From: an uncultured delta proteobacterium
GTDB lineage: Bacteria; Desulfobacterota; Desulfomonilia; UBA1062
NCBI GenBank assembly: GCA_963785235.1
Contig: CAWAUM010000005.1
Coordinates: 128,001-192,000 of the forward strand
Length of the DNA stretch: 64,000 bases
Direction: 5' to 3'
Part shown: piece by piece, positions 4,435-32,036 of the stretch
How the letters are laid out: each line of letters begins with the position of its first letter
Numbering within the stretch: the stretch's first letter is position 1
Made by a program: the position numbers and the translations under genes
The notes under the pieces: model-generated
Told to the model about the DNA's origin: nothing
The model's input: the letters and a program-made list of their open reading frames with translations, nothing else
Databases searched by the model: none

Positions 4435-5754
<1,320 letters not shown>

Positions 5755-12249: not shown

Positions 12250-12348
12250 CATCAAAATTTATGAAGGTACTTGCCTGGGCAAAGGCATGGATTATTCTAT
12301 TATGCACTACAATCGCTTGTCCCTGCTTTGAAAGGAGAGCTTGATACT

Positions 12349-12744: not shown

Positions 12745-12757
12745 TTGAAAAAAACCA

Positions 12758-14908: not shown

Positions 14909-15046
14909 AGGTAAACCCCTCAAAAGTTTAGTGTGTAGAGAATCTGCCAAGACAATTGTAAAACCATAGGTAATATTTATCATTAATATTCTATTACAGG
15001 AAACGGTAAAATATAATATATTCAGTATTCATCACCGCCAAAGAGT

Positions 15047-15295: not shown

Positions 15296-16097
15296 ATGGT
15301 CGATACCCACCTGTGCCAGCCTGATGCCACAAAATCATGCGCTGCCTGCTGCGGAATCTATAATTACGTGGACAACACCAGGGACTCCCTGGAAAAACGC
15401 TTTGAATCCCGCACGCAACTTTTCTCCAGGGTAAGGGAAAACACGCTTCCCATAGAAGACTATCAGGCCATTATCCGTCACAAGGAGAACCCCAAGCGCA
15501 TCTATGCCACCATCTATACCTGCGAGTTCGTGGGTTTTCTGGATGATGGCTTCAAACGGGTAGGGTGCATGCTCCATCCTCTGATGAATCACGGGGAAGA
15601 CCTGCGAGTGATAAGTTTTTACGGTAGGGATATCTGTGAAGGCCACTTCTGCCCCAGCTACCAGAAGCTCGATGCACATGAGGCGCACATCCTCCTGGCA
15701 GCCCTTGATGACTGGTACCTCTACGGCAGCGCCATTACGGATATCGACTTTGTGAAAAGCTTTTTCAAAATCATCCAGGACCGTCTTGGCGAGACACTGG
15801 ACGTGAAGAAAGGTCCGGTCCACACCTGCACTCCTTGACATTATCAGACGCTATTGCGGCCTGAAGGTATCCTGGCCGTTTCGGGATACTCTCAGGCCCC
15901 GGTTCGGAAAGTATTACTTCGTGGGTGAGGAGTATGATATTGCCCGCATCGACTATGCATCGCTTTCTGCCCCTGTCTCTGTCTATGACGCCATCTTTGT
16001 GAGCCTGTCCTCCCGGTTTAAAAGCAAGGTTGAGCTGGACAAGGCCGCACGGATGATAGATGCTCTCATGGAGGAGTTCTGCCTTGGATACAGCTGA
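15296..16097 (+). CDS. Cys-rich putative Fe-S/Zn protein (frameshift near 15810)
   Basis: LCQP..SCAACCG, YTCEF, GCMLHP, ICEGHFCP; a shifted frame continues KVRSTPALL...FCLGYS* to 16097, overlapping the nadC start. Confidence 0.7.
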
Positions 16098-16915
16098 GCT
16101 GATGGATGATATCATTCAACTGGCGCTGGATGAGGATGGAAGGGACATCACCACCGAGGCCATCTTCTCCGAGGAAAACTCTCTGCAGGCCGTCATGAAG
16201 GCAAAGGCGGACGGCATCATAGCGGGCGTACAGGTGGCCGGAAGGGTCTTTACCCTGGTAGACCCCGGCATTACCTGCAAATTCGAGGTGCACGACGGAC
16301 AATCCGTGGTTGCAGGCGCTACGATCGCTGTTATCACAGGCCCTGCAAGGGGCATACTCAAGGCGGAACGGGTGGCGCTCAATTTTTTGCAGCGCATGAG
16401 CGGCATTGCCACCAGAACTGCAGTATATGTGAAAAGGCTTGAGGGCACCAAGGCCCGCATCCTGGACACCCGCAAGACCTCACCGGGACAGCGCGTGCTC
16501 GATAAGATGGCCGTGCGGCTCGGAGGCGGAAACAATCACCGCATGGGGCTCTTTGACATGGCGCTCATCAAGGACAACCACATCGATGCGAGCAGGGTCC
16601 ATTACAGAGGCGGTGAACAGGGTCAGAAAGGCTTCCCCCGGTGTTGCCATTGAGGTGGAGGCCAGGAATCTTGATGACGTGAGGACTCTGCTGGGACTGG
16701 ATGTTGACAGGATCATGCTGGATAACTTTTCCATCAAAGACATGGAACAGGCAGTTTATCTTGTACATGGCCGCATCCCGCTGGAGGCCTCGGGAGGCAT
16801 AACGCTGGAGACCATCCGGGCAGTGGCCCTGACCGGGGTGGATTATATCTCAGTGGGCGAGATCACCCACTCGGTCAAGGCCCTTGATATATCCATGATC
16901 ATCGAGGTGGAATAA
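16084..16915 (+). CDS. nadC: Nicotinate-nucleotide pyrophosphorylase (frameshift near 16590)
   Basis: ERVALNFLQRMSGIAT, LDTRKT, HRMGLFD, IKDNH, then IEVEA, IMLDNF, EASGGI; TTG start after GGAGGAG. Confidence 0.95.
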
Positions 16916-17951: not shown

Positions 17952-19584
17952 ATGGGCACCAAACGCAAAGAGACCGAATGCCTTGTCATCGGCACGGGTA
18001 TTGCGGGCACAACGTGCGCGCTCATGGCTGCCAAGATGGGTATCAAGGTCTGCCTTATCACCAAGCGTTCCGACATCTATGCCACCAACACCAACCGGGC
18101 CCAGGGGGGCATCGTATACAAGGGCAGCGGCGATTCTCCAAAGTTGCTCGTGGACGACATCATGCGGGCAGGCAGGGATATCAACTCGGTCGAGGCCGTG
18201 GAATTCCTGGCCACCAGGGGGCCCGACGTCGTCAAGGAGATGCTCATCGACGAGCTCAAGGTGGACTTCACCCACCTTACCGGTGCAAGGGACGAGGATT
18301 TCGACCTGACCCGGGAGGGGGCGCACTCGGTCAACCGCATCCTCTACTCGGCAGACAACACCGGAGAGGTCATCGAAAAGGCACTTATCAAGGCGGTGAA
18401 GGCGCACCCCAATGTGGAGATCATCACCGAGGCCACTGCCATCGACCTTATAACCCTCCACCATCACTCTAAGGACATACAGGCATCCTACCAGCTGGAC
18501 AACCGCTGCCTTGGTGCATATGTATTCCGGAACCGGAAGAAGGAAGTCATGGCCATCCTGGCCCAGAACACCGTGCTGGCCACGGGCGGCCTCGGGGACA
18601 TCTACCTGCACACCACCAACGAGAAGGGCACGGTGGGCGACGGCATGGTCATGGCACAGCGCGCAGGAGCCCGCATGATCAACATGGAGTTCATGCAGTT
18701 TCACCCCACCACGCTCTACATTCCAGGGGCAAGGAGGTTCCTCATCTCGGAGGCGGTTCGCGGCGAGGGTGCCACGGCTCAAAAATCTTCGAGGCGAATA
18801 TTTCATGGAGCGCTACAATCCCGAGCTCAAGGACCTGGCTCCCAGGGACGAGGTGGCCCGCGCCATCTGGGAGGAGATGCTCCACAATTCCGAGGACCAT
18901 GTCCTGCTTGATGTTGCAAATTATGTCCATGAGGATATTCCAACCCGGTTCCCGACCATCTATGCCACCTGCAAAGAAGCAGGTATTGACATCACCAGGG
19001 AGCCTGTGCCCGTAGTACCTGCAGCCCATTATTTCTGCGGAGGGGCGCACGTGGACATACGGGGCCGGACATCCCTGAAGGGACTCCACGCAGTGGGAGA
19101 GGTCTCCTGCACCGGGCTCCACGGCGCCAACCGGCTTGCCTCCACCTCGCTGCTCGAGGGCCTCACCTGGGGATACTATGCGGCCATCGATATCACGGAG
19201 CGGATCAATGCAGGCAAGACCGTGAGTCCGTCCGTGCTCGGCTCGGCCCGTGACTGGATCCCTGCGGGCAACATTGAAAATGAAGATCCGGCTCTCATCG
19301 CCCAGGACTGGATGGCCATCAAGAACACCATGTGGAATTATGTGGGCATTGTACGGACACCGCCCAGGCTTAAGCGCGCCATTGAAGACATGCGGCACAT
19401 GTACCTGAGGATCGAGGAGTTCTACAAGGAGACCCCGGTATCCAAAGACATCATCAGCCTGTTCCAGGGCACCCAGTCGGCCATCATGGTGGCAGAGGCC
19501 GCCTTAAGAAACCGCACCTCCATCGGGTGCCATTACATAGCACCCTCGCGGGGATTGGAAGGCAATTTTCCGGCGATCAGGTAG
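17952..19584 (+). CDS. nadB: L-aspartate oxidase (frameshift near 18780)
   Basis: VIGTGIAG, AQGGI, REGAHS, MEFMQFHPT, LISEAVRGEG, LAPRD, PAAHYFCGG, GLHGANRLASTSLLE. Confidence 0.95.
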
Positions 19585-20879: not shown

Positions 20880-21869
20880 TTACCTGACGAGACCTTCGGG
20901 CGTGTGCCCCATCAGGATGTCTCTGGCCTGCCGGACCACGGAATCGGAGAGGCGGTCCCCCGCTTCTCTGCTCAAGGCACCCAGGTGGGGAGAGAGGATC
21001 ACATTCTCCATTCCGGTCAGGGGATGACCGGGACTCAGGGGTTCACGGGTGAATACATCCAGTGCGGCCCCCTCGATCCGGCCTTGCTGCAATGCCTCGA
21101 GGAGGGCCTCTTCATCGATCACCCTTCCACGGGACGTGTTCACCAGGATCATGCCAGGTTTCATCATTGCCAGGGCGCGTGAATCGATAAAATTTTCCGT
21201 GTCTTTAGTAAGTGGAATATGGATGGTGACTATGTCCGAACGAGACAACAGCCCGGGCAGATCAACCGTTTTCACTTCCAGGGCGACACACTGCTCAGGA
21301 CTCATGAACGGATCATGCCCGATTATTTCCATGTCAAAGCCCCTGGCGATCCCTGCTACTCTCGATCCGATCTGGCCCAGGCCGATAATGCCAAGGGTCT
21401 TTCTCCATAACTCTCTGCCGGATGCCCATTCGGGCAAAGCCCTTCCTGCCTGTGCCCAATCCCCTGATCTCACCCACAAGTCGGCCTTGTGGATTCGCCT
21501 CAAAAGACAGAGCATCAGGGCGAAGGTCAGCTCGGCAACAGACTGGGCATTCTGGCCCCGGCAGTTGCATACCTGAACGCCGCCTTTCTTCATGGCCCCC
21601 ACATCGATGTGGTCGTACCCGGCCCCATAGGCGATCACCCCCTTCAGGGCAGGCGCTGCCCTCAAAACCGCATCATTCACCGGAACATACTCGGAGACGA
21701 TGAACTGGACCGATGATGATCCCCGGATCTTGTCCGAGAGGTCTTCGGCATTCTTCGCGTCGGCAAAGGCATAGCCCCCCAGGCCGGAGAGTTCGGCAAG
21801 GGCCTTTTCAGACATGTAGAACCGGTCGGCAAAGACGACCGCAGCGGAAGATACACTATGAGCGTTCAT
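20880..21869 (-). CDS. D-isomer-specific 2-hydroxyacid dehydrogenase (hydroxypyruvate reductase/SerA-like)
   Basis: GAGYDHID, GIIGLGQIG, VNTSRG, LDVFTREP, SPHLGA (Arg/Glu/His catalytic set intact). Confidence 0.92.
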   Translation of the reverse strand: MNAHSVSSAAVVFADRFYMSEKALAELSGLGGYAFADAKNAEDLSDKIRGSSSVQFIVSEYVPVNDAVLRAAPALKGVIAYGAGYDHIDVGAMKKGGVQVCNCRGQNAQSVAELTFALMLCLLRRIHKADLWVRSGDWAQAGRALPEWASGRELWRKTLGIIGLGQIGSRVAGIARGFDMEIIGHDPFMSPEQCVALEVKTVDLPGLLSRSDIVTIHIPLTKDTENFIDSRALAMMKPGMILVNTSRGRVIDEEALLEALQQGRIEGAALDVFTREPLSPGHPLTGMENVILSPHLGALSREAGDRLSDSVVRQARDILMGHTPEGLVR

Positions 21870-21884
21870 CACTGGACTGAGAGC

Positions 21885-23239
21885 CTACATGACCAGCATC
21901 AGCTTGATGTCGTTCACGTTGGTGCCGGTGGCCCCGGTGATGACGGCATCACCCAGCTTTTGCAGCACAGGGGTCACGTCGTGACTCCTGAGCGCGGCAT
22001 AGATGTCTATCCCCAGAGCCCTCGCACGTTCGAGCGTGAAGTTGTCCACAACCCCGCCGGCAACGTCCGTGGGACCATCGGTCCCGTCCGAGTCCTGCCC
22101 GACGATGACCACATCGCCGATTCCATCGATCCAGAGTGCGGCCCCCAGCGAGAACTCCTGGTTCGGCCCTCCCTTTCCCGCTTCGCCCGTGATCCTCACC
22201 GTGGTTTCCCCGCCGCCGATGATCGCACATGGAGGCTTCAAAGGACGCCGGTTCAGGAGGATCTCCTTGGCAATGGCTGCAAAGGTGCTCCAAGTTCCCT
22301 GCTTTCCCCCTCCAGCATGGTGGAGAGGATCATGGTCTCGAAGTTCAGCTCCCTGGCCTTTTCGGCAGCGCCCTCACAGGCCGCGGTACCGGCAACGATA
22401 ATGAAGTTGTCCATATTGTGGTCCGAGAGGTCCTTGGGTGTCTCCTGGGCCGGGCCTCCTTCCTTCAGATACCGGCTTACCGAGGCCGGGACCTTGTCCC
22501 AGAGTTCGTATTTGGTGAGCGTCCTGCGTGCATCGTCAAAGCTCGACGTGTCGGGCACCGTGGGACAGGTGATGTAGTCCAGCGGATCGCCGATCACATC
22601 TGAAACCGTGAGGTTGATGAGATGGGCCTGGGGATGGATGGCCTTGGCAAGCCACCCTCCTTTGATCCGGCTCAGGTGCTTGCGCACCGCATTGATCTCG
22701 ATGATATTGGCGCTGCAGGTCAGAAGCAGCTTGTTAACCAGCTTTTTTTCATCCAGACTGACCCCTTCGACCGGATAGGGCATGAGTGCCGAGCTCCCAC
22801 CGGTGATGCCTGCAAACACGATGTCTCCCGGCAGGGTCTTTCGGGCCAGAGCCAGCGCCTCCCCGGCTGCCTTGTATCCGGCCTCGTCGGGAATGGGGTG
22901 GCTTGAAAAGTAGAGCCGGGAGCGCCTCAGGGCGCCTTCCTGGCCGTATTTGCAGATGATCACCCCGTCTTCTATCCGGTCTCCCAGGATATCTTCCAGC
23001 GCTTTTGCGATGGGGTAGGTTGCCTTGCCGGTGCCAAGGAGGAAGAGCCTTCCCTGCTTCTTCAGATCAAGGCGTATCTCGCCCACCTGCAGGATATCCC
23101 CCGTGAGGTGGACCAGGTCTTTTACTGCCTTGTAGGGATCGGCCTTGGCGAGCGCATGATCCACAATGTCAAATGCTATTCTGCGTAGCCGCTCGTTGCC
23201 GTGCGCCAGCAGCGTATCCAGGTTTCTGATATAGCTCAT
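21885..23239 (-). CDS. Glycerate 2-kinase family (TtuD/MOFRL) (frameshift near 22290)
   Basis: GTGKA, SHPIPDE, ITGGSSAL, INAVRKHLSRIKGG, SDVIGD, GGETTV, GGPNQE, DGTDG, TGTNVND. Confidence 0.93.
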
Positions 23240-23391
23240 GAGTTGACCCTCCTGACGTTCCCCGTGCCCGGTAAGGGGCACGGGGTTGGATCTGCTCTCG
23301 TGCACTGCAGGGGAATTACAGGGACGGATACGGTGATCCACAGGGGTGTGGTCTCCCCGTAATACCCCTCTTTATCGTGTCTCCCATATCA

Positions 23392-24666
23392 TTAGAATGC
23401 AGCCTTGAAGTTCCTCCCGGCATAGACGGCCTGGGACCCGAGCTCTTCCTCGATGAGCAGGAGGCGGTTGTACTTGGCGGTCCTTTCGCTGCGGACACCT
23501 GCGCCTGTCTTGATCTGTCCGGCATTGATGCCCACCACGAAGTCCGCGATGATGGGGTCCTCGGTCTCTCCCGAACGCTCGGAGACCATGATCCCGAATC
23601 CCTGCCGGTAGGCAAGCTCTGCAGCGTCGAGCGCCTCGGAGAGCGTCCCGATCTGGTTGAACTTCCACAGAAGGGCATTGGCTGCGCCCTTGGGAGCCCG
23701 CTCCCTGATGCGATCCGGGTTCGTGCAGTAGAAATCGTCGCCCACGATCTGGATCCCCAGCTCTTTGGTCGCCCGGGTGAAGCCCTTGATGTCGTCTTCT
23801 GCAAAGGGGTCCTCGATGGATATGATGGGGTAGTCCTTGCAGAGCTTCTTGTAGTAGTCGAAGAGCTGATCCGTGGTGTAATCCACGCCTTCGAGCGTAT
23901 ACTTCTTGGTCTTGGCATTGTACCAGTGCGTGGCCGCGCAGTCGAAGCCGTAGCCGATCTTCTTGGCGTACCCGGAGCGGTCCACCGCCTCCACCAGGCA
24001 CTCCATGGCCTCGCGGACCTTCTTGATGGGCGTGGCGAAGCCGCCTTCGTCACCCACGTTGGCCGCTATCTTGCCGTACTTCTTGATGATGATGTCGCGG
24101 AGCTTGTTGTTGACCGCGTTTCCGATCATCATGGACTCGGAGAATGTCTCGGCGCCAATGGGGTAGATGCAGAACTCCTGAAAGTCGAGGTCGTTCGAGG
24201 TCAGCTTGCCGCCGTTGAGCAGGTTCAGCAGCGGTACTGGCAGTATGTGCGCATTGCAGTTGACGTACCGGTAAAGCGGCAGCTGGACCGCATTGGATGC
24301 GGCGCGCGCCACGGCCACCGAAACGCCTGCGATGGCGTTGGCCCCGAGCTTGGACTTGTCCTTGCTCCCGTCAAGAGCGCGGAGCTTCTCATCCACTTTG
24401 CGCTGATCGGTCACATCCATGCCGATCACGGCGGGCCCGAGGATAGCGTTGATGTTCTTCACTGCCTTGCGCACACCCATGCCGTCGTAGCGCTTCTCCT
24501 TGTCACGGAGCTCCTTGGCCTCGTTGGCCCCTGTTGACTTGCCTGCAGGGACATCGGCCCTGCCCAGTATCTCGTCGTTCACGAGCACGTCCACCTGGAC
24601 CGTCGGATTCCACCTGCAGTCCAGTATCTCCCTGGCAAAGACGTCTGTGATTTTGAACTTTTTCAT
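23392..24666 (-). CDS. eno: Enolase paralog with divergent active site
   Basis: Full-length enolase (GDEGGFA, IEDP, VGDD, KFNQIG, QIKTG, RSERTAKYN) but with NGGKL and SERSGETED variants. Confidence 0.93.
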   Translation of the reverse strand: MKKFKITDVFAREILDCRWNPTVQVDVLVNDEILGRADVPAGKSTGANEAKELRDKEKRYDGMGVRKAVKNINAILGPAVIGMDVTDQRKVDEKLRALDGSKDKSKLGANAIAGVSVAVARAASNAVQLPLYRYVNCNAHILPVPLLNLLNGGKLTSNDLDFQEFCIYPIGAETFSESMMIGNAVNNKLRDIIIKKYGKIAANVGDEGGFATPIKKVREAMECLVEAVDRSGYAKKIGYGFDCAATHWYNAKTKKYTLEGVDYTTDQLFDYYKKLCKDYPIISIEDPFAEDDIKGFTRATKELGIQIVGDDFYCTNPDRIRERAPKGAANALLWKFNQIGTLSEALDAAELAYRQGFGIMVSERSGETEDPIIADFVVGINAGQIKTGAGVRSERTAKYNRLLLIEEELGSQAVYAGRNFKAAF

Positions 24667-24699
24667 GATATTGCCACTCCTTTCGAATTTTTGGATTTA

Positions 24700-26001
24700 T
24701 TATGAAATGGTACTGTCGAGGACAGTTAACGCCCGCTGTGCCTGGGGGAAGAACAGCACCGACGGGTCGGGTTTTGAAACCATGTCGAAGGCCTTCTCGA
24801 GGGCCTTCTGCGGTGATGCAGCGGAGTTCAGGAGCATCTTGTGCAGTATGGCGTCTTCCACGTTCGGCGTAGACACCACGATGCGGACGCCCTTCAAGAG
24901 TATCTTACCCAGCAGAAGGGCGTGATCCATCTGGATCTTATAATCTGCATTCAAGCGCTCTATGACCTCGTTCACGTCATGGGCACCCTCGTAGGGTATC
25001 AGCATGTCCGCCGTGCCGATCCCGTCGTAGCAGGAACTGTACAGGACGAGTACCCCTCCTGAAGCCATGACCGGGGCCAGGGCAATCAGGGGTTTGACGG
25101 ACTGGTAGAAATTGATGTTGAGCGGCCTGCCCGGCGTGGTTACGATGATGTCGGGCCTGGCCTTCAGGGAGATCTGGCAGAAGGACCTCATGAACTCGAC
25201 TGCCGCCAGGTGCGCCTCGATAACGTCGCCGGTGAATATCCCGATGGTTTCGCCTGCCTGATTCAACACCAGGTTGATGGTGAAATGGATCTTCATCATC
25301 CCGGCCGCTTCGATCATGTCGAGATGGATAGGGTTGTTCAGGAGCTGACCGGGACGGGCCTCGGCCGACATGAGCATCTCCGGCCGGTGGTTTATTTCGA
25401 TGGACCTCTCGCTCGCGACCCCCGGGAGCACAGACTTCCTTCCTCCGGAGAATCCTGCGAATTCATGGGGCTCCACCTTTCCCACGGAGATCCTCAGGTC
25501 CGCTTCATGAACGGTCCTGGATACCTCGATGGGTGTGCCGTATGAGGTCTTTCCCAGATACACGAGCTTTCCGGCGTCATACGGGTCATGGCTGATGACC
25601 GTGATCCCGTCCAGGTTCTCTTTGCCCACGATGTCGCTGATCTCGGCATCCGTAGCCGGGCGGTGCACCCCCGTGGCTATGACTACCGTGATGCAGCCTT
25701 TGTCGACCCCGGCACAGGTGAGCTCGTCGAGAATCAGGGGCATGACTTTTGCGGTGGGGACGCCCCGGGTCGAATCGGCGACGATGACGGCAACCCGCTT
25801 GGCACCCCGGGCGATATCACGCAGCAGCGGGGTACCCCTGGGAGATCCGAAGGCACTCCTGAAATCCCCGGGCCAGGAAACCCCGGACGGCTCTTCGAAT
25901 CCGATCAGGCCGAGGCAGCGCTGCCTTTGAGTCGAAATTTCAACGTCCTCGATCCCGTCGTGATAGACGAGATCGGATCCCTGTTCATGGATTCTGTACA
26001 C
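24700..26001 (-). CDS. larA: Nickel-pincer 2-hydroxyacid racemase/epimerase, LarA family
   Basis: DSTR, ATGVHR, PHEFAGFSGGRKS, INH, FYQSVK; GTG start after AGGAGG; symbol denotes the family, substrate unknown. Confidence 0.9.
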   Translation of the reverse strand: MYRIHEQGSDLVYHDGIEDVEISTQRQRCLGLIGFEEPSGVSWPGDFRSAFGSPRGTPLLRDIARGAKRVAVIVADSTRGVPTAKVMPLILDELTCAGVDKGCITVVIATGVHRPATDAEISDIVGKENLDGITVISHDPYDAGKLVYLGKTSYGTPIEVSRTVHEADLRISVGKVEPHEFAGFSGGRKSVLPGVASERSIEINHRPEMLMSAEARPGQLLNNPIHLDMIEAAGMMKIHFTINLVLNQAGETIGIFTGDVIEAHLAAVEFMRSFCQISLKARPDIIVTTPGRPLNINFYQSVKPLIALAPVMASGGVLVLYSSCYDGIGTADMLIPYEGAHDVNEVIERLNADYKIQMDHALLLGKILLKGVRIVVSTPNVEDAILHKMLLNSAASPQKALEKAFDMVSKPDPSVLFFPQAQRALTVLDSTIS

Positions 26002-26011
26002 GAGAGGCCTC

Positions 26012-26536
26012 CTATTCCCTGAGCTCCGCATGGTTTGCGTTCAGAGGGGGCAGGCCTTTTAGGTCCCGGATGATATGCATGATACCGTAGATGGTCATGA
26101 GGAAGAAGCTGAGCGGAATGGCCGCATAGGGCAGTGCCGTGGAGATGCCCAGCGCCGGGGTGACCTGCTCCCATGTCTCATTCACCAGGATGGCCCCTGC
26201 CACCGTTACGATACCAACGGTAACGGTCGCCAGGTAGATGACCATCCGCTCCAGGAACTTCTGCAGCCCCTTGGGCATCATCTCCCGGAAGATGGTGATG
26301 CCCAGGTGCCCGTTGCGCTTGTGCAGTATGCTTGCGCTGAGCAAGGCAAACCAGACGATGGTGAAACGCAGGAATTCCTCCGACCAGGTCAGCGCACTGT
26401 TGAAGACATACCGCCTGATCACATGCATCCAGGCGACCATGAGCATGACTGCGCAGATGACCATGGTGACGTCGAGCGTTGCCTTTTCGACCAAGTCACA
26501 GAACCGTTCCAGCCTTGATTTTTCCATTTCAGCCAC
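26012..26536 (-). CDS. dctQ: TRAP transporter small permease
   Basis: VIRRYVFN..LTWSEEFLR, HLGI, four TM segments. Confidence 0.92.
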   Translation of the reverse strand: MAEMEKSRLERFCDLVEKATLDVTMVICAVMLMVAWMHVIRRYVFNSALTWSEEFLRFTIVWFALLSASILHKRNGHLGITIFREMMPKGLQKFLERMVIYLATVTVGIVTVAGAILVNETWEQVTPALGISTALPYAAIPLSFFLMTIYGIMHIIRDLKGLPPLNANHAELRE

Positions 26537-26594
26537 TCCTTTGAATCACTCTTCCCGGCTTTGTATTGCGCTTCCGGATCGGTGCAATTCAATC

Positions 26595-26634
26595 AAAGGG
26601 GCGGGGCTGCCTTTCGTGCAGACCCCGTCCCTTT
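26595..26634 (-). other. Intergenic stem-loop after dctP
   Basis: AAAGGGGCGGGGCTGC...GCAGACCCCGTCCCTTT imperfect inverted repeat between dctP and dctQ. Confidence 0.5.
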
Positions 26635-26642
26635 CTCACGGA

Positions 26643-27674
26643 TTAGAAGCCGGCATTCACGTCCTTGTTAACGGCGGTAATCGCTGCGAGCCACTGATCC
26701 ACGAAATTTTTGTCCGTGCTCGCCTTGATCTTCGCCACCACGGCACCCTGGGACTTGAGTCTCATCTTCTCCTTGTTGGCAGGGGTGACGTCGTTCACCT
26801 TCATGCCCTTGGTCCGCAGCTTGTCGATGATGGCATCCTCACGGGCCCTGTTGATGAACCGGCTGTAATTCTGAGCAAGGACAGCTCCCTGCAAAATGAC
26901 TGCCTGCTGATCCTTGGGGAGCTTGTTGAACCAGGTAAGATTCGCCACCAGGGGCATGGGGTCATAGATATGGCCGGTCAGCGAGGTGAACTTCTGCACC
27001 TCGAACATCTTGACTTCCCAGATGTTGGCCAGGGGGTTTTCCTGTCCGTCAACGACCTTCTGCTGCATGGTCAGGTAGAGCTCGGTCCATGGGACAGGAG
27101 TCGGGTTGGCGCCCAGCGTCTTGAAGTTCTCCATGTGCATGGGGGCTTCCATGGTGCGGATCTTGATTCCCTTCAGGTCATCGGGGCCGTTGATGGGGCG
27201 CACATTGTTCGTCACATGACGGAACCCGTTTTCCAGGTAGGCCAGGCCCTTGAGCCCGATGCCTTCACTGGAGTTGAGCAGGTTCTGCCCCGTGGGGCCG
27301 TCGAGCACAGCCCAGGCGACATCGTAGCTGTCAAAGGCAAAGGGGATGTCCAGGACCATGAACTTCTTGTTGAAGGTCGTGAGAGGTCCTGCTGAGGCAG
27401 TGGCCATCTCCAGCGAACCGGCTTTCACCTGCTCCACCGATTCCCGCTCTCCGCCGAGCTGGGAGTTGTAGTACAGCCCGACCGAAATCGCGCCTTTGGT
27501 CTTGTCCTCCACATACTTCTTGAATACCTGCATGCCTATGGACTGCGGATGTGACGGGGCGTTGCAGAGGGATACCCTGATCTTCTTGGGTGAAGCGGCG
27601 AAGAGCATCCCGGAGAAAAGGAATGAGACTGCCACAGCCAGAACCACCATAGTGAACCATTGAGACTTCTTCAT
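26643..27674 (-). CDS. dctP: TRAP transporter solute-binding protein
   Basis: Signal peptide; QLGGERE, ENGFRH, DLKGIKIRT (carboxylate-binding Arg), VDGQENP. Confidence 0.95.
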   Translation of the reverse strand: MKKSQWFTMVVLAVAVSFLFSGMLFAASPKKIRVSLCNAPSHPQSIGMQVFKKYVEDKTKGAISVGLYYNSQLGGERESVEQVKAGSLEMATASAGPLTTFNKKFMVLDIPFAFDSYDVAWAVLDGPTGQNLLNSSEGIGLKGLAYLENGFRHVTNNVRPINGPDDLKGIKIRTMEAPMHMENFKTLGANPTPVPWTELYLTMQQKVVDGQENPLANIWEVKMFEVQKFTSLTGHIYDPMPLVANLTWFNKLPKDQQAVILQGAVLAQNYSRFINRAREDAIIDKLRTKGMKVNDVTPANKEKMRLKSQGAVVAKIKASTDKNFVDQWLAAITAVNKDVNAGF

Positions 27675-27755
27675 AAGCTTACCTCCGTGATAATTTTTTT
27701 GGCTTGCATAGTTGAGTCTGCGTTTTCCAATGTATTGTTCTCCAAAAACCGCCGC

Positions 27756-29036
27756 CTAATATCCGAACATGCGCGGCAGCCACAACGTGAGGGGCGGGAA
27801 GTAGGTCAGCAGGAACAGCACGGCCATGCTGGCCACGAGCATGGGCCAGCTCCCCTTGAAGGTGTCCTCCACCGATACCCCGGCCATGGGGCTCGTGACG
27901 AACAGGACAATCCCGAAAGGTGGCGTAGCCAGGCCGATGACCAAATTGACGCAGATGATGACGCCGATCTGGAGCGGGTCCACACCCAGGGCCCAGGCGA
28001 TGGGAGCCAGGATCGGGCCCAGCACGATGACCGAGGCGTAGTCGTCCATGAACATGCCGTTGATCAGAAGGCCGATGTTCAACAGAAGGAGAAAGCCCCA
28101 CAGCGGGAAGTTCGCGAGCGAGGCGGCCAGGATGTCGACGACCTGCTCGTTGGCGATGGCCCAGGCCGTCACCGTGGCGCTCCCGGCAAGCAGGATGACA
28201 AGGCCCGAGGTGACCGCCGTCTCCATGAAAATGGCGGGAAGATCGCGCCACTTCACATCTTTGGCAAAGAACATGGAGATGACGAAGGCATACGCCGCAG
28301 CGGCCGCCGAGGCCTCGGTCACGGTGAAGATGCCCCCGAAGATGCCGCCCAGGATGATGACCGGCAGGAACAGGGCGGGCAGAGCCTTCTTTAACTGCCT
28401 GCCCCGCTCAGGCCAGGCGACCCGTTCGTGCCTGGCCAGCTTGTCCCGCCTGGCGATGAAATATATCACCAGCATCTGGGCCACCGCGATGAGAACGGCC
28501 GGGATGATGGAGGCAAGGAAGATCCCGGCAATGGAAGTACGTCCCACCGAGATGCAGTAGAGGATCATGAGCACGCTGGGCGGCATGATGGGCCCCAGCA
28601 GCGAGGCGCTTGCCATGACGCCCGAGGCGAACGCCGGCTTGTACCCATCCTTCTTCATCATGGGGATGAGGAAGGAACCCAGAGAGGCTGTCTCGGCCAC
28701 GGCCAGGCCCACGATGGCACCCATGAACAAACACGTGCCCACCGTCACCAGGGCCAGCGCCCCCCGTACGTGCCCCACAAAGGCGTTCACGAAATCCGTC
28801 AGGTCCCTCAGAATTCTCCCCTTGGCCATGAGCTGTCCTGTCAGGATGAAGAAGGGGACGGCGAGCAGCGCGAACCCGTTCATGCCCTGGAACATCCGCT
28901 GGGGGATCAGGGTGAGCGGGTAGCCGCCGACCAGGAGGTAGATGAACGAGCTGAAGATCAGATTTAACGCAATGGGAAACCCGATGATGAGCAGAAAGAC
29001 GAAGCAGATGATCAGGGCTAGCAGGGCCGTGGACAT
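27756..29036 (-). CDS. dctM: TRAP transporter large permease
   Basis: LLAVPFFILTG, IMPPS, GGIFTVTE, TPPFG; highly hydrophobic 426 aa. Confidence 0.95.
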   Translation of the reverse strand: MSTALLALIICFVFLLIIGFPIALNLIFSSFIYLLVGGYPLTLIPQRMFQGMNGFALLAVPFFILTGQLMAKGRILRDLTDFVNAFVGHVRGALALVTVGTCLFMGAIVGLAVAETASLGSFLIPMMKKDGYKPAFASGVMASASLLGPIMPPSVLMILYCISVGRTSIAGIFLASIIPAVLIAVAQMLVIYFIARRDKLARHERVAWPERGRQLKKALPALFLPVIILGGIFGGIFTVTEASAAAAAYAFVISMFFAKDVKWRDLPAIFMETAVTSGLVILLAGSATVTAWAIANEQVVDILAASLANFPLWGFLLLLNIGLLINGMFMDDYASVIVLGPILAPIAWALGVDPLQIGVIICVNLVIGLATPPFGIVLFVTSPMAGVSVEDTFKGSWPMLVASMAVLFLLTYFPPLTLWLPRMFGY

Positions 29037-29218
29037 AGCCTAAACCTCCTTCAGAAACCAGGCTCTCTTCCGTTTCAGAAAATCCGTTGAACTGGGCTGT
29101 ACCGGTGGTAATCCGACGATGACCTCATTTTCTCCGCAGCCGAGAGGGAAAGCCTCACTCCTAACATGTAATAATAATCTCTCGAATTTAATATGCAATG
29201 GACAAGACGGTTGCATGA

Positions 29219-29998
29219 TCATGCACGTCCCCCTGCATCTCTCTCGGAGCGCCCCAGCAACAGGGAGATCTCCGCTGCGGCATCCAGCGCCGCCTGGATG
29301 TTCTTCTTTTTCTGTTCGTCCGAGAGACGGAAGATGGGCCCGCTGATGGTGAGGCTCGCCACGATTTTCCCCTTTTTCCCCAGGACCGGCGCCACCAGTG
29401 AATAGCTCCCCGGCTCCCGCTCTTCCAGGCTGACCGCATACCCGTCATGGCGGATCTTCTCCAGGTCCGCCTCCAGCTCCTCCGGGTCGGTGATGGTGCT
29501 CGCCGTGAACGTTTCCAGGGGCTTCCCGAAGATGATACCCCGCCGGATTTTTTCAGGGAGATACGCAAGGAGCACCTTGCCCGAAGCACCGCAATGAAGC
29601 GGAAAAACCTTTCCAACCTGAGTCACCTTGGCAACACCGTGGTGACTCTTTACTGCCTCGATGCAGATCCGGGTGCCTTCACCGGGTACATAGAGGGAGA
29701 CTTCTTCGCCACAGAGGTCCCTGAGTCTCTCCATTACCGGCCGCGCCAGATCAGTGAGGGTTGTCTCCTGAGAGATGATGCTTTTCCACTGATGGAATTT
29801 GATGCCCAGCCGGTATTTGCCCCCGGGTGTTTCACGCTCCAGGCACTTCTTCTTTTCCAGTGTGGCCAGGATACGGGAGACCGTGCTCTGGTTGAAACCT
29901 GTGATGATGCTTATCTCCGTGACGTTGAGTGAGGGGGTTTCCACCGTGAAGCAGGAGAGGATGTCAACGGCCTTCTCGACGGATTTGATGTTCGTCAC
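29219..29998 (-). CDS. IclR family transcriptional regulator
   Basis: SVEKAVDIL and STVSRILATL HTH; PLHCGASGKVLLA, IRHDGYA, SLTISGP. Confidence 0.95.
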   Translation of the reverse strand: MTNIKSVEKAVDILSCFTVETPSLNVTEISIITGFNQSTVSRILATLEKKKCLERETPGGKYRLGIKFHQWKSIISQETTLTDLARPVMERLRDLCGEEVSLYVPGEGTRICIEAVKSHHGVAKVTQVGKVFPLHCGASGKVLLAYLPEKIRRGIIFGKPLETFTASTITDPEELEADLEKIRHDGYAVSLEEREPGSYSLVAPVLGKKGKIVASLTISGPIFRLSDEQKKKNIQAALDAAAEISLLLGRSERDAGGRA

Positions 29999-30009
29999 CG
30001 CATCTCCTT

Positions 30010-30072
30010 ATGCACATATGTGATATGACCATGCACATCATGCATATTGCACAATCGTTTTATTGTTGTCAA
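30010..30072 (-). promoter_or_regulatory. Putative sigma70 promoter with repeated operator-like sites for iclR
   Basis: TTGACA (30072-30067), 17-nt spacer, CAATAT; two ATGCACAT-N5-ATAT repeats at 30010 and 30031. Confidence 0.5.
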
Positions 30073-30147
30073 CATATTTTTACAGTACATGAATAATCCT
30101 GGATTCCCCTCCACCCGGAGGCTGGTTTCTGGTAAGAGAAGAGGAGT

Positions 30148-31134
30148 ATGGAGTACGAAATCATCGCAACCCTGGGGCCCGAGAGCAGTACAGAGCCGCT
30201 CTGGCTCAGCCTCATCTCTGCAGGAGCCTCCTCGTTCCGGCTGAATACTTCCCACCTCTCCCTTGAGCAGATCGAACACTGGCTTTACAGGCTCCTTCCT
30301 TTCCTGAAAGGGCAAGGTCTTTTTAACCGCCTCGTTCTTGACCTTCAGGGGAGCAAGTGGCGCCTCGGAGATTTTGCCCAATTCTTCATGGAGCCAGGCC
30401 AGCTTGTCGAGCTTGTATGCGCCTCGTCGGCCAAGAGTGCCGGCATAGTGCCGGTCCCGCACCAGGACTTTTTCCAGGCCGTCCTCTCCTCCGACGGGAC
30501 CATCGTGCTGAACGATGCCAGGATCGTCCTGGCTGTGGAAAAGGCTGACGCCCTCACCTTACAGGCACGCGTAGTCAGCGGTGGAGAGATCTCTTCGCGC
30601 AAAGGAATCACCTGCTCCTCGACAAGTTTCCGCAGAGAATCTCTGGGCGACAAGGACGTTGCAATACTCAATCTCACAAAGGGCATGGATGGTGTCTGCT
30701 ATGCCGTATCCTATGTGAAGGATGCACAGGAGATGGCCTGGTATCGGACCAGGACCGGCGATCAGACATATGTGATCGCCAAGCTCGAACGCAAAGATGC
30801 CCTCGAAGGGGTGGAGGGGATCGCGATGTTCTCGGACGAGCTGTGGCTCTGCAGGGGTGATCTTGGTGCAGAGATGGGGCTGGTAGCCATGGCCGAGGCG
30901 GTCCACCGGTTCTCCCACAGGGTGCGCTCCATGTCCAAGCCCGTACTTCTGGCTGGGCAGGTTCTGGAGCACATGACAACATGTCCGATCTCAACCCGTT
31001 CCGAGGTGTGCTGTCTGCATGATGCCCTGGCTAAGGGATACAAGGGCATAGTCCTCTCCGACGAGACTGCTATAGGCAAATATCCAGTCGAAAGCTGCCA
31101 TACGGCGGCCATGTTCAAGACAAGCGCTCCCTAA
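30148..31134 (+). CDS. pyk: Pyruvate kinase family protein, short and divergent
   Basis: IIATLGP, FRLNTSH, DLQGSK, IAKLE, RGDLG, LSDETAIGKYP; 328 aa, ending before the usual C-terminal domain. Confidence 0.88.
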   Translation: MEYEIIATLGPESSTEPLWLSLISAGASSFRLNTSHLSLEQIEHWLYRLLPFLKGQGLFNRLVLDLQGSKWRLGDFAQFFMEPGQLVELVCASSAKSAGIVPVPHQDFFQAVLSSDGTIVLNDARIVLAVEKADALTLQARVVSGGEISSRKGITCSSTSFRRESLGDKDVAILNLTKGMDGVCYAVSYVKDAQEMAWYRTRTGDQTYVIAKLERKDALEGVEGIAMFSDELWLCRGDLGAEMGLVAMAEAVHRFSHRVRSMSKPVLLAGQVLEHMTTCPISTRSEVCCLHDALAKGYKGIVLSDETAIGKYPVESCHTAAMFKTSAP

Positions 31135-31328: not shown

Positions 31329-32036
31329 TTGTCTGATCCGACTATAGGCATCCTCGCAGGAATGGGGCCTCGGTCGACGGGTTCCTTTCTCGACTTGGTA
31401 GTTACAGCTTGCCAGGACTTGTATGGGGCGCATCATGACATCGACTTTCCCAGGATGCTGATCTGCTCACAGCCTGCACCGTTCTATGAGGATCGTCCCA
31501 TCGACCATGCTGCGCTTGAGGCTGCAACACTCAATGGTCTGAAGTACTTGGAGTCAGCGGGTGTTGATTTCCTCGCAATGGCGTGTAACACAGTGCACAT
31601 TTATTACCATCGGCTCGCCGCTTCGGTTTCTGTTCCCTTGCTCAATATTGTTGATTCGGCCGTACACGCAGTGCCTAGAACGACTGGGCCAGTCGCCCTT
31701 GTAGCCACGCGGCCAACCGTTGCATCATACATCTTTCAGAGTGCGCTGCAGGCCGCAGGCCATAGCTGCGTCGAATTGGATTGGCAAGAACAGGTTGACG
31801 CCATGCTTTCGGGCGTACGCGAATCAAGCGATCCCGCGTTCTTTCGTCGCCAATGGGCACTTATCCTCGAGAAGGCTTACGCGGCGAAAGTCGGGGCTGT
31901 TTTGGTCGCCTGCCTCGACCTCAGTGGAGTCTTACGCTTCGCTGAAACTAAATTGACTGTCGTTGATGCCGCAGAGTGTTTGGCGCAGGCCTTAGTGAAT
32001 CAGTGGTTGTCCATGCGCACGATTACCATGGACTGA
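31329..32036 (+). CDS. Aspartate/glutamate racemase family protein
   Basis: IGILAGMGPRST, MACNTVH, second Cys in VACLDLS; TTG start after AGGAG. Confidence 0.88.
   Translation: MSDPTIGILAGMGPRSTGSFLDLVVTACQDLYGAHHDIDFPRMLICSQPAPFYEDRPIDHAALEAATLNGLKYLESAGVDFLAMACNTVHIYYHRLAASVSVPLLNIVDSAVHAVPRTTGPVALVATRPTVASYIFQSALQAAGHSCVELDWQEQVDAMLSGVRESSDPAFFRRQWALILEKAYAAKVGAVLVACLDLSGVLRFAETKLTVVDAAECLAQALVNQWLSMRTITMD

What the first reader, a model, noticed from the sequence alone, without database searches (positions are those of the whole stretch)
20880..31134. Parallel lower-glycolysis pathway for a 2,3-dihydroxy acid, with a LarA-family racemase
Seen: co-oriented iclR-dctM-dctP-dctQ-larA-eno2-glycerate kinase-D-2-hydroxyacid dehydrogenase, with a divergently transcribed pyruvate kinase. 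Established: TtuD/MOFRL kinases make 2-phosphoglycerate, enolase and pyruvate kinase take it to pyruvate, and LarA homologs invert C2 of various 2-hydroxy acids. Inference: uptake, racemisation, 2-phosphorylation, dehydration and ATP recovery for L/D-glycerate. Because eno2 and pyk both have altered active sites, the substrate may instead be a larger analogue such as 2,3-dihydroxybutanoate or a tetronate. I cannot confirm from here whether this pathway has been described.
Basis: partly seen in the sequence, partly recalled or inferred. Interest (0 to 1): 0.82.

Follow-up and report, generated by a model that had tools for sequence, protein, structure and literature searches.

The report
Racemase, kinase and private enolase operon
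This is a real gene cluster, shared by many anaerobic bacteria, that imports a small hydroxy acid, flips its mirror form with a nickel-cofactor enzyme, and feeds it through its own copies of late glycolysis enzymes; the true substrate is still unknown.

Summary
The genes are there as described: iclR, dctM, dctP, dctQ, a LarA homolog, a second enolase, a MOFRL glycerate-2-kinase and a D-2-hydroxyacid dehydrogenase on the minus strand, with a short pyruvate-kinase-like gene opposite. Two corrections apply. The kinase is split by a 1-nt frameshift that relatives lack. The pyruvate kinase has no C-terminal domain.

The core is strongly conserved. Of 79 loci found with the LarA clade, 63 hold both an enolase paralog and the kinase, 62 hold TRAP genes, and 9 fuse kinase and enolase. 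The PK-like gene is adjacent in only two contigs, but it co-occurs with the operon in 13 of 16 carrier genomes.

The genome also has housekeeping enolase, pyruvate kinase and a second glycerate kinase. The operon's copies are therefore private paralogs with altered active sites.

My best reading is uptake of D/L-glycerate, racemisation, 2-phosphorylation and dehydration to PEP. A C4 or other analogue is not excluded. I found no description in print. This scan has noted the same module on other DNA.

The parts
20880..21872 (-). D-isomer-specific 2-hydroxyacid dehydrogenase (330 aa), last gene of the operon
   Evidence: PF02826 and PF00389. Best NCBIfam hits are PGDH at 255 bits and glyoxylate reductase at 240 bits, both below cut-off. 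Nearest solved structures are archaeal PGDH and glyoxylate reductases. Present in 24 of 31 type-A loci.
21885..22241 (-). C-terminal (MOFRL) part of the glycerate-2-kinase-type gene, in another frame than the N-terminal part
   Evidence: PF05161 MOFRL, 113.6 bits. Read by hand, the frame continues the N-terminal ORF if one base is added near 22286.
22253..23341 (-). N-terminal (DUF4147) part of the glycerate-2-kinase-type gene. The probable true start is the ATG at 23239 (MSYIRNLDTLL...).
   Evidence: PF13660, 229 bits. NF041176 glycerate 2-kinase scores 147 bits against a cut-off of 550. The intact ortholog in L006 is 85% identical.
22286..22287 (.). Site of the 1-nt frameshift in the kinase gene
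   Evidence: Contigs of runs X1, X2, X3 and X5 (about 94-96% alike) all carry one extra C behind 22286 or 22287. Other genes of the window are also split, so an assembly error is likely.
23392..24666 (-). Enolase paralog Eno2 (424 aa)
   Evidence: TIGR01060 scores 518 bits against a cut-off of 300. It is 47-50% identical to the housekeeping enolase of the same window. The best solved relative is M. jannaschii enolase 2pa6. Two active-site histidines are replaced by Leu and Glu, while the metal ligands, both Lys and both Glu are kept.
24700..26031 (-). LarA homolog (NPN-dependent 2-hydroxyacid racemase/epimerase type)
   Evidence: Lar_N and LarA_C domains. It scores below all NCBIfam LarAH cut-offs; the best is the LarAH6 malate racemase model at 341 bits against 500. 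Catalytic and cofactor residues are kept, and the specificity positions read E, F, D, H.
26012..26536 (-). TRAP small membrane subunit DctQ
   Evidence: PF04290, 100.6 bits.
26643..27674 (-). TRAP solute-binding protein DctP
   Evidence: PF03480, 292 bits. Nearest solved SBPs are 4p47, 4p9k/4pak, 4pdh, 4xeq, 7bbr, 4nq8 and 4pdd. PMC11668362 describes this group as bound to pantoate or erythronate, and 7BBR as sugar-acid-binding (passages read).
27756..29036 (-). TRAP large membrane subunit DctM
   Evidence: PF06808, 364 bits.
29212..29229 (.). Palindrome TGCATGATCATGCA and a 15-nt word shared with 30025-30039: candidate operator ahead of dctM
   Evidence: The 12-mer ATGAYCATGCAC has exact matches only at 29215 and 30025 in the 64 kb window. 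It was not found at intergenic places in relatives.
29219..29998 (-). IclR-family regulator
   Evidence: PF09339 and PF01614. The best NCBIfam hit is BhcR at 160 bits against a cut-off of 350. An IclR hit is present in 15 of 31 type-A loci; other lineages have GntR or RpiR regulators in their loci instead.
30025..30039 (.). Second copy of the shared word, in the divergent iclR / PK-like promoter region
30148..31134 (+). Short pyruvate-kinase-like protein (328 aa, A and B domains, no C-terminal domain)
   Evidence: PF00224, 147 bits. TIGR01064 scores 180 bits against a cut-off of 306. The AF2 model has pLDDT 89.4. The best structural match is 8iw2, Entamoeba histolytica pyruvate kinase, 321 aa, Z 34.7. 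It co-occurs with the LarA homolog in 13 genomes.

Best explanation
This is an IclR-controlled catabolic operon for a small polar 2,3-dihydroxy monocarboxylate, most likely D/L-glycerate.

Proposed steps:
1. The TRAP system (DctP/Q/M) imports the acid.
2. The nickel-pincer (NPN) LarA homolog inverts C2, so that the L form is turned into the D form.
3. The MOFRL-type kinase phosphorylates the 2-hydroxyl, giving 2-phosphoglycerate.
4. The private enolase paralog removes water, giving PEP.
5. PEP is used by the short PK-like enzyme (pyruvate plus ATP) or by other PEP-using enzymes.
6. The D-2-hydroxyacid dehydrogenase probably links hydroxypyruvate or glyoxylate to the same pool.

Shown: gene content, order, conservation, fusion, residues, and cofactor genes in the genome. 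Inferred: every catalytic step and the substrate.
For: Conservation:
- 63 of 79 LarA-clade loci carry both an enolase paralog and a MOFRL kinase, and 62 carry TRAP genes.
- 9 loci encode a kinase-enolase fusion of about 895 aa.

LarA homolog:
- It keeps the residues equivalent to R75, H108, H174, K184, H200 and K298 of LarA.
- larB, larC and larE are present in the genome.
- LarA-family enzymes racemise glycerate in vitro (PMC11770544, abstract and sections 5-6 read).

Kinase:
- The characterised class II (MOFRL) kinases compared there make 2-PG. The T. tenax enzyme accepted only glycerate among the compounds tested.
- They prefer D-glycerate; L-glycerate gives 13-34% of that rate (PMC2063504, passages read).

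Eno2:
- It passes the enolase model at 518 bits against a cut-off of 300.
- It keeps the metal ligands, both lysines and both glutamates.

Context in variant loci:
- Aldehyde:ferredoxin oxidoreductase lies directly before Eno-GK-LarA in L064.
- A PEP carboxykinase-subfamily gene follows the kinase in L026.
- A DAHP synthase lies beside LarA in L064.
- Hydroxypyruvate/glyoxylate-reductase-like D2HADH is present in 24 of 31 type-A loci.

Binding protein: it falls among binders of small hydroxy monocarboxylates.

PK-like gene:
- It co-occurs with the operon in 13 genomes; 1 genome has only LarA, 2 have only the PK-like gene, and 106 have neither, out of 122.
- Two flanking control genes occur in 3 and 7 genomes with other patterns.
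- Co-organisation of class II glycerate kinase with pyruvate kinase is known from Pseudomonas, M. extorquens and A. vitis (PMC2063504).
Against: - The genome already has a housekeeping enolase (675 bits, window 4435-5724), a full-length pyruvate kinase, and a second intact MOFRL kinase. That second kinase is closer to T. maritima glycerate kinase than the operon's copy is: 327 against 249 bits to 2b8n. For plain glycerate, only the importer and the racemase would be needed.
- The LarA specificity positions (E, F, D, H) differ from the F, F, W, E/Q pattern of the enzymes shown to act on glycerate.
- Two active-site histidines of Eno2 are replaced.
- In the 'type B' loci (gut Clostridia, Collinsella, Spirochaetia, Planctomycetota), the same LarA signature goes with an enolase-like protein that lacks the catalytic Glu of the GDEGG motif.
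- Four loci have a Na+:alanine-family carrier instead of TRAP.
- The kinase scores below the equivalog cut-offs and is frameshifted in this assembly.
- The PK-like gene is adjacent in only two contigs.
- No assay, expression data or ligand data exist.
Confidence: 0.5

Rival explanations
1. The pathway logic is the same, but the substrate is an analogue. Candidates are a C4 2,3-dihydroxy acid (D-erythronate/D-threonate, L-forms, or the 4-deoxy forms, that is 2,3-dihydroxybutanoate). The private kinase, enolase and PK-like enzymes would make and use a homolog of 2-PG and PEP. This would yield 2-oxobutanoate or 4-hydroxy-2-oxobutanoate plus ATP.
For: - All three downstream enzymes are diverged paralogs kept beside housekeeping copies.
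- The changed residues lie in the active sites. In Eno2, His becomes Leu and His becomes Glu. In the PK-like protein, ATQM..SM becomes AGQV..HM, which is invariant in the family.
- The LarA signature E..H recalls the sugar-acid epimerases (GntE: E, V, A, H) but has bulkier residues, which fits a shorter polyol chain.
- The nearest solved binding proteins hold erythronate or pantoate.
- LarA enzymes epimerise 2,3-dihydroxybutanoate isomers in vitro (PMC11770544 abstract).
Against: - No MOFRL kinase is known to act on anything other than glycerate. T. tenax GK was 'absolutely specific' among the compounds tested, though C4 acids were not among them.
- The neighbours in L026 and L064 (PEPCK subfamily, DAHP synthase, aldehyde oxidoreductase) point to PEP and glyceraldehyde.
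- No enzyme for the further fate of a C4 2-oxo acid is conserved in the loci.
- L026 and L064 enolases keep the first histidine.
Confidence: 0.28
2. The enolase paralog does not dehydrate. After 2-phosphorylation it removes another C3 leaving group, for example ammonia from a 3-amino-2-hydroxy acid such as isoserine. Alternatively, the pathway starts from a small amino acid that an OCD/SbnB-like or saccharopine-dehydrogenase-like enzyme converts first.
For: - Acidic residues (E, D) line the LarA specificity positions, and Eno2 gains a Glu.
- Type-B enolase-likes lack the general-acid Glu.
- 25 loci carry an OCD/mu-crystallin-family gene. Its best matches are NF004848 at 443 bits, then the SbnB family and archaeal alanine dehydrogenase.
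- 10 loci carry glutamate dehydrogenase.
- 4 loci carry an AgcS-type amino-acid carrier instead of TRAP.
- L033 and L038 carry saccharopine-dehydrogenase-like genes and an Asp/Glu racemase.
- The window itself has an Asp/Glu-type racemase right after the PK-like gene.
Against: - The window's own operon (type A) has none of these amine-handling genes inside it, and Eno2 keeps the full acid/base set.
- TRAP binding proteins of this cluster bind hydroxy acids.
- Isoserine is rare in nature (recalled).
- The Asp/Glu racemase is found in only 3 of 122 related genomes.
Confidence: 0.1
3. There is no dedicated pathway. The enolase, kinase and PK-like genes are ordinary isozymes of central metabolism that happen to sit by a TRAP/LarA lactate- or malate-racemase unit.
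For: - Eno2 passes the curated enolase model.
- The best NCBIfam hits of the LarA homolog are the malate and lactate racemase models.
- A listed reference title says that the yeast H159A enolase mutant 'has significant activity' (title only, seen in the reference list of PMC5237310).
Against: - The set is conserved together across phyla in 63 of 79 loci, is fused in 9, and two unrelated enolase lineages are recruited to the same LarA and kinase families.
- The LarA homolog lacks the Lys that marks malate racemases and the F, F, W pattern of lactate racemases.
- All LarAH model cut-offs are missed.
Confidence: 0.06

Closest known systems
Glycerate branch shared by the non-phosphorylative Entner-Doudoroff pathway, the serine cycle and tartrate/glyoxylate utilisation (class II glycerate 2-kinase, enolase, pyruvate kinase). 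Examples are the P. fluorescens PFL1594-1598 cluster and the A. vitis ttu genes.
   Same: It uses a MOFRL kinase that makes 2-PG, followed by enolase and pyruvate kinase. Gene linkage of the class II kinase with a pyruvate kinase is already reported (PMC2063504, passages read). A hydroxypyruvate/glyoxylate-reductase-type dehydrogenase often accompanies it.
   Different: Here the kinase is joined to a LarA-type racemase, a TRAP importer and its own enolase paralog. Both the enolase and the PK are diverged second copies. No glyoxylate carboligase, tartronate semialdehyde reductase, tartrate dehydrogenase or serine aminotransferase is in the operon.
LarA superfamily of NPN-dependent 2-hydroxyacid racemases/epimerases (LarA, Mar1/2, Hgr, GntE, LarAH10, LarAH43, etc.)
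   Same: It has the same two-domain fold family, the catalytic histidines and the cofactor-binding residues. Cofactor genes are present in the genome. Glycerate and 2,3-dihydroxybutanoate are proven in-vitro substrates of some members (PMC11770544).
   Different: The specificity signature is E, F, D, H. This is none of the published patterns: LAR F, F, W, E/Q; MAR x, x, H/Q, K; HGR Y, F, H/Q, T; GntE E, V, A, H. It scores below every NCBIfam LarAH cut-off. No member of this clade is named as characterised in the parts I read of either paper.
Canonical enolase (EC 4.2.1.11); nearest solved structure M. jannaschii 2pa6
   Same: It scores 490 bits to 2pa6 and is above the TIGR01060 cut-off. It keeps the Ser/Asp/Glu/Asp metal ligands, Lys345, Lys396, Glu168 and Glu211 (yeast numbers as listed in PMC5237310; mapping by motif).
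   Different: His159 becomes Leu and His373 becomes Glu, along with DSRG to DCRW and SGASTG to AGKSTG. Among the 150 best cluster representatives plus the two window enolases, 116 have the H/H/E pattern and only 3 have L/E/E. It is always next to, or fused with, a MOFRL kinase in the loci examined.
Short pyruvate kinase of Entamoeba histolytica (PDB 8iw2, 321 aa)
   Same: The best sequence match is 170 bits and the best structural match is Z 34.7, rmsd 3.2 over 317 residues. Both lack the C-terminal regulatory domain, and both have A-G at the place of A-T in ATQM.
   Different: It is only 28% identical. No activity data for either protein were seen here, and a 2020 review still lists E. histolytica among organisms without PK (PMC8100219 passage).

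Membership tests
LarA superfamily (NPN-dependent racemase/epimerase) | Lar_N and LarA_C domains | tested here: met
   PF09861 at 181 bits and PF21113 at 52 bits.
LarA superfamily (NPN-dependent racemase/epimerase) | Catalytic His108/His174 and cofactor residues R75, K184, H200, K298 (LarA numbering) | tested here: met
   All are aligned and kept against 5huq. They are near-invariant in 70 clade members. The residue list is from PMC11770544 section 6.
LarA superfamily (NPN-dependent racemase/epimerase) | Cofactor synthesis genes larB, larC, larE in the genome | tested here: met
   LarB 221 bits, LarC 183 bits and LarE 300 bits, all over cut-off, elsewhere in the genome.
Lactate racemase (LAR) / malate racemase (MAR) / GntE subgroups | Signature at F175, F176, W358, T359 (LAR F, F, W, E/Q; MAR ..H/Q, K; GntE E, V, A, H) and the NCBIfam cut-off | tested here: not met
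   The residues are E, F, D, H. Scores are 341 against 500 (LarAH6), 306 against 460 (LarA), 289 against 462 (LarAH5) and 263 against 540 (LarAH10).
Enolase, EC 4.2.1.11 | Curated model score, metal ligands, Lys345, Lys396, Glu168, Glu211 | tested here: met
   TIGR01060 at 518 bits against 300. Motif table.
Enolase, EC 4.2.1.11 | His159 and His373, listed as required for yeast enolase activity (PMC5237310) | tested here: not met
   Leu and Glu stand at these places. Some type-A relatives (L026, L064) keep the first His.
Enolase, EC 4.2.1.11 | Conversion of 2-PG to PEP | not testable with these tools
   This needs an enzyme assay.
Class II (MOFRL) glycerate 2-kinase | DUF4147 plus MOFRL domains in one chain | tested here: inconclusive
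   Both domains are present but in two frames in this assembly. Relatives and four metagenome contigs are intact.
Class II (MOFRL) glycerate 2-kinase | Equivalog-level similarity to characterised kinases | tested here: not met
   The window N-part scores 147 bits and the intact L006 ortholog 212 bits, against a cut-off of 550. It is 37% identical to the genome's other MOFRL kinase.
Pyruvate kinase, EC 2.7.1.40 | Barrel domain with the Arg, Lys, Glu and Asp of the phosphoryl-transfer site | tested here: met
   PF00224 at 147 bits. RLN.SH, KLE, RGDLG and LSDETA are aligned with three full-length PKs. Residue roles are recalled.
Pyruvate kinase, EC 2.7.1.40 | C-terminal domain, curated model score, Thr of the ATQM motif | tested here: not met
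   There is no PK_C. TIGR01064 scores 180 against 306. AGQV replaces ATQM and is invariant in 27 family members.
TRAP transporter | DctP, DctQ and DctM genes together | tested here: met
   TIGR00787 scores 252 against 175, and TIGR00786 scores 379 against 268.

The most novel reading that the evidence does not exclude
The operon and its unlinked PK-like partner form a complete 'shadow' lower glycolysis with private kinase, enolase and pyruvate-kinase paralogs. It would act not on glycerate but on an analogue: a C4 2,3-dihydroxy acid, or an amino-hydroxy acid in the lineages whose enolase-like protein has lost the catalytic glutamate. It would make a PEP homolog and harvest ATP from it. That would be the first enolase-subgroup and pyruvate-kinase-family enzymes with a physiological substrate other than 2-PG and PEP, and a new catabolic route present in gut Clostridia and sediment anaerobes.
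Probability: 0.3. Interest if true: 0.85.

Novelty: new variant of a known kind. Interest (0 to 1): 0.62.

Why it matters
The glycolytic enolase subgroup is, as far as I recall, treated as doing one reaction only. Databases name every member 'phosphopyruvate hydratase', including relatives here that lack a catalytic glutamate yet still pass the curated model.

This is a conserved, cross-phylum module in which a nickel-pincer racemase, a glycerate-kinase paralog and a rewired enolase always travel together. It gives a direct, testable handle on three questions:
- the unknown substrate of a whole LarA clade;
- whether enolase and pyruvate-kinase paralogs have diverged in function;
- an uncharted acid-utilisation route in gut Firmicutes, Synergistota and sulfate-reducer relatives.

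If the substrate turns out to be plain glycerate, the result is still a new way to use both enantiomers.

Tried and rejected
1. 'The PK-like gene is unrelated.' I first concluded this from adjacency: 1 of 79 LarA loci and 1 of 13 PK-like neighbourhoods. Other contexts were M16 peptidase or UDP-glucose-dehydrogenase/DUF218/patatin. I withdrew it after the genome-by-genome co-occurrence count and the two controls. Related genomes are not independent, so this is suggestive only.

2. A compensating His/Glu 'swap' in Eno2 (SHRS to SERS together with AASEF to AATHW). I rejected this because the second position varies among canonical enolases (E, S, N, Q, H).

3. Dicarboxylates (malate, tartrate), suggested by the best NCBIfam hit. 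I judge these unlikely because the Lys of malate racemases is replaced and two acidic residues line the site. This is inference only.

4. Sulfolactate, suggested by the CuyB-like racemase next door. I dropped it because that gene is absent from the other 79 loci and from 119 of 122 related genomes.

5. A shared operator. The 12-mer is exact only at 29215 and 30025 in the window. However, the 10-mer core hits in relatives lie inside dctP coding sequence, not in intergenic DNA, so conservation is not shown.

6. Literature. Vetting et al. 2015 (PMC4310620) and Crouzet & Otten 1995 (PMC177504) are not held. The ligand names of the nearest SBP structures rest on PMC11668362 and PMC5812351 passages only.

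7. Sequencing runs. The best holders share about 0.3 of the words at most. They are relatives, so no habitat or expression claim is made, and no RNA run was laid.

8. Complex prediction, the protein-atlas search and the second structure job were not used.

Full report
**1. What is in the window.**

ORF listing and Pfam/NCBIfam scans give, on the minus strand from 29998 down to 20880:
- an IclR regulator (29219-29998);
- DctM (27756-29036), DctP (26643-27674) and DctQ (26012-26536);
- a LarA homolog (24700-26031; Lar_N and LarA_C);
- an enolase (23392-24666; TIGR01060 at 518 bits, cut-off 300);
- a DUF4147/MOFRL kinase (22253-23341 and 21885-22241);
- a D-isomer 2-hydroxyacid dehydrogenase (20880-21872).

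Gaps between genes are small: DctQ and LarA overlap, and there are 33 nt between LarA and the enolase. Opposite iclR, 149 nt away, lies a 328-aa protein with only the pyruvate-kinase barrel (30148-31134).

Two details were missed.
- The kinase is in two frames. Reading the DNA shows that one base is missing near 22286.
- Contigs from four public metagenome runs, about 94-96% alike, all carry one extra C exactly there.

Because nadB, a thiolase, a glycogen phosphorylase, the quinolinate phosphoribosyltransferase and the genome's full-length pyruvate kinase are also split, an error-prone assembly is the simplest reading. A real mutation in this strain cannot be excluded.

**2. These are second copies.**

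The genome has:
- a housekeeping enolase in the same window (4435-5724, 675 bits);
- a full-length pyruvate kinase on another contig;
- a second, intact MOFRL kinase beside alanine dehydrogenase, an amidohydrolase and two class-III aminotransferases.

That second kinase is closer to the T. maritima enzyme (2b8n) than the operon's kinase ortholog is: 327 against 249 bits, and the two are 37% identical to each other. There is also a second LarA homolog elsewhere. larB, larC and larE are present, so the nickel-pincer cofactor can be made.

**3. Active sites.**

LarA homolog (compared with L. plantarum LarA, 5huq, and Mar2, 6d6z):
- It keeps the catalytic histidines and the cofactor residues.
- At the four positions that the Desguin group uses to predict specificity (F175, F176, W358, T359) it has E, F, D, H.
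- These are invariant or nearly so in the clade.
- They match none of the published patterns, and all NCBIfam LarAH models are missed.

Eno2 (compared with the housekeeping copy and M. jannaschii enolase):
- It keeps the metal ligands, both lysines and both glutamates.
- It has GGKLT for GGKHA and SERSGETED for SHRSGETED. These are His159 and His373 of the yeast list in PMC5237310; the mapping is by motif.
- Among the 150 best 50%-cluster representatives plus the two window enolases, 116 show the canonical pattern and 3 the Leu/Glu pattern.
- Relatives in L026 and L064 keep the first histidine, so the His-to-Glu change is the constant mark of this lineage.

PK-like protein:
- It keeps the phosphoryl-transfer motifs but has AGQV..HM for ATQM..SM, invariant in 27 family members.
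- Its best structural relative is the 321-aa Entamoeba histolytica pyruvate kinase 8iw2 (Z 34.7).

**4. Conservation.**

A scan of one genome per species with an alignment of the LarA clade gave 79 loci.

tblastn with the window's proteins and clustering of all ORFs show:

| Component | Loci (of 79) |
|---|---|
| Enolase paralog | 64 |
| MOFRL kinase | 66 |
| Both | 63 |
| TRAP genes | 62 |
| D2HADH | 27 |
| IclR | 16 |
| PK-like gene | 1 |

Of the 15 loci without an enolase hit, 8 are short contigs of under 15 kb. The other 7 are long and truly lack it within 10 kb; five of those 7 have a GlcD-like FAD oxidase next to the LarA homolog instead, two of them with M20 amidohydrolases as well.

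*Type A* (31 loci with an enolase at least 58% identical to Eno2):
- Taxa by record title: Thermodesulfobacteriota/'Deltaproteobacteria', Desulfuromonadales, Bacillota MAGs, Atribacterota, Synergistota.
- Order: regulator, DctM-P-Q, LarA, (GntR), Eno2, kinase, D2HADH.

*Type B* (31 loci):
- Taxa: Faecalicatena, Blautia, Ruminococcus, Oscillospiraceae, Collinsella, a spirochaete, Planctomycetota.
- It has the same LarA signature and TRAP genes.
- It has an ornithine-cyclodeaminase-family gene (25 loci), often glutamate dehydrogenase (10 loci), and a divergent kinase-enolase pair.
- In 9 loci that pair is one fused protein of about 895 aa.
- Its enolase-like part lacks the glutamate of GDEGG (GGSYGW or APSYGY) and has SGRSGGVVG, yet still scores 381-384 bits on TIGR01060.

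In a FastTree of 78 enolases, type B is one long-branched clade. Type A sits inside another clade, together with six representatives whose active-site patterns also depart from the canonical one and one canonical-pattern representative. So the two are not sisters in this tree (midpoint root; long-branch effects are possible).

**5. The PK-like gene.**

It is a member of a large family of about 325-aa proteins. Among 13 neighbourhoods fetched from relatives, only one (the same contig as L009) has it directly after the D2HADH gene. Six full 20-kb neighbourhoods lack the operon, and six contigs were too short to tell.

Among the 122 genomes of the class, however, the picture is different:

| Gene | Genomes (of 122) |
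|---|---|
| LarA homolog | 14 |
| PK-like gene (at least 56% identical) | 15 |
| Both | 13 |
| LarA homolog only | 1 |
| PK-like gene only | 2 |
| Asp/Glu racemase (flanking control) | 3 |
| EamA (flanking control) | 7 |

This includes the window's own genus, where only 2 of the 15 scored genomes (the window's own genome and one relative) have either gene, and both have both. The two flanking control genes show other patterns. Related genomes are not independent, so this is suggestive and not proof.

In the window, an exact 12-mer (ATGAYCATGCAC, part of a palindrome) occurs only twice in 64 kb: ahead of dctM, and in the iclR/PK-like promoter gap. I could not show this word at intergenic places in relatives.

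**6. What the context says about the substrate.**

For glycerate:
- The characterised MOFRL kinases compared in PMC2063504 make 2-PG from glycerate and prefer the D form. The T. tenax enzyme took no other compound tested (PMC2063504).
- LarA enzymes can racemise glycerate (PMC11770544).
- The nearest solved binding proteins hold erythronate, pantoate or sugar acids.
- In L064 an aldehyde:ferredoxin oxidoreductase precedes Eno-kinase-LarA and a DAHP synthase follows.
- In L026 a PEP-carboxykinase-subfamily gene follows the kinase.
- The D2HADH resembles glyoxylate/hydroxypyruvate reductases and short PGDHs.

Against plain glycerate:
- All three downstream enzymes are private, diverged paralogs.
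- The LarA signature is new.
- The type-B enolase-like protein lacks the general acid.
- Four loci have an AgcS-type amino-acid carrier in place of TRAP.
- Amine-handling enzymes (OCD/SbnB-like, saccharopine-dehydrogenase-like, glutamate dehydrogenase) occur in other lineages.

**7. Verdict.**

The operon is real, ancient or widely transferred, and functionally coherent.

| Reading | Probability |
|---|---|
| D/L-glycerate to PEP | about 0.5 |
| A C4 analogue | about 0.28 |
| A non-hydroxyl leaving group or an amino-acid-derived substrate | about 0.1 |
| Mere co-location of ordinary isozymes | about 0.06 |

**8. Known or new.**

[quoted passage not shown] Full-text searches found no paper that joins a LarA homolog with glycerate kinase or an enolase paralog:
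- LarA, racemase, superfamily and glycerate;
- enolase, glycerate 2-kinase, lactate racemase and TRAP;
- enolase paralog, enolase-like, second enolase, glycerate kinase and MOFRL;
- glycerate racemase, L-glycerate, nickel-pincer and TRAP transporter;
- lactate racemase and glycerate kinase, with 0 papers.

The supplementary gene-context table of Desguin et al. 2020 could bear on this, and I could not see it.

Earlier notes of this scan, on other genomes, describe the same module (e1-5221487, e1-2325502, e1-4146149, e1-935287). One of them is marked 'part of it fell' on a later check, without saying which part. I treated them as leads and re-derived each point here.

Noticed in passing
window 17952-18911 and 18769-19584 (nadB); 16060-16653 (nadC); 12758-14983 (glycogen phosphorylase pieces); 3485-4273 (thiolase N-half); G000:C13:126104-127062 (pyruvate kinase): Many ordinary genes are split into two or more frames. 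For nadB, reading the DNA suggests one extra base near 18775. The assembly seems to carry frequent single-base indels, which also affects the kinase of the operon.
   Followed up: partly
L063:3838-6525 (also L054, L058, L059, L067, L068, L072, L073, L079): Single proteins of about 895 aa fuse a DUF4147/MOFRL kinase to an enolase-like domain. They occur in gut Clostridia and a Collinsella aerofaciens assembly.
   Followed up: partly
L070:2661-3980, L051:12834-14105, L055:2118-3389, L037:629-1903: These enolase-like proteins lack the glutamate of the GDEGG motif (GGSYGW or APSYGY) and have SGRSGGVVG for SHRSGETED. The one scanned, L070:2661-3980, and the fusion L063:3838-6525 still score 384 and 381 bits on TIGR01060, above the cut-off of 300, so annotation pipelines will call such proteins phosphopyruvate hydratase.
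   Followed up: partly
L044:8521-9882 (also L047, L049, L050): In four Bacillota MAGs an AgcS-type sodium:amino-acid carrier stands where the TRAP genes stand elsewhere, between the OCD-family gene and the LarA homolog. An isopropylmalate-synthase-like (HMGL-like) gene follows.
   Followed up: no
G000:C5:503740-510313 (locus L123:3740-10313): The genome's second LarA homolog sits after its own IclR gene. It lies divergent from two 2-hydroxyacyl-CoA dehydratase subunits, their BcrAD-type activator and an SDR. This is another racemase-plus-hydroxyacid module.
   Followed up: no
G000:C5:211610-218668 (locus L122:2610-9669): The second, intact MOFRL glycerate kinase lies divergent from alanine dehydrogenase, an amidohydrolase and two class-III aminotransferases.
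   Followed up: no
window 31329-32036: An Asp/Glu-type racemase lies directly after the PK-like gene. Its best hit is the cysteate racemase CuyB model, at 123 bits against a cut-off of 190. It was found in only 3 of 122 related genomes, all of which also carry the LarA operon.
   Followed up: partly
L033:4276-6563 and 11377-14665: In Thermovirgaceae/Synergistales loci, the LarA-GntR-enolase-kinase block is flanked by an Asp/Glu racemase, two saccharopine-dehydrogenase-like genes and an arginine-deiminase/DDAH-fold gene.
   Followed up: no
window 50277-54247: An alpha/beta hydrolase, a wax-ester synthase/DGAT and a phasin gene lie in a row, which hints at storage-lipid or PHA metabolism.
   Followed up: no
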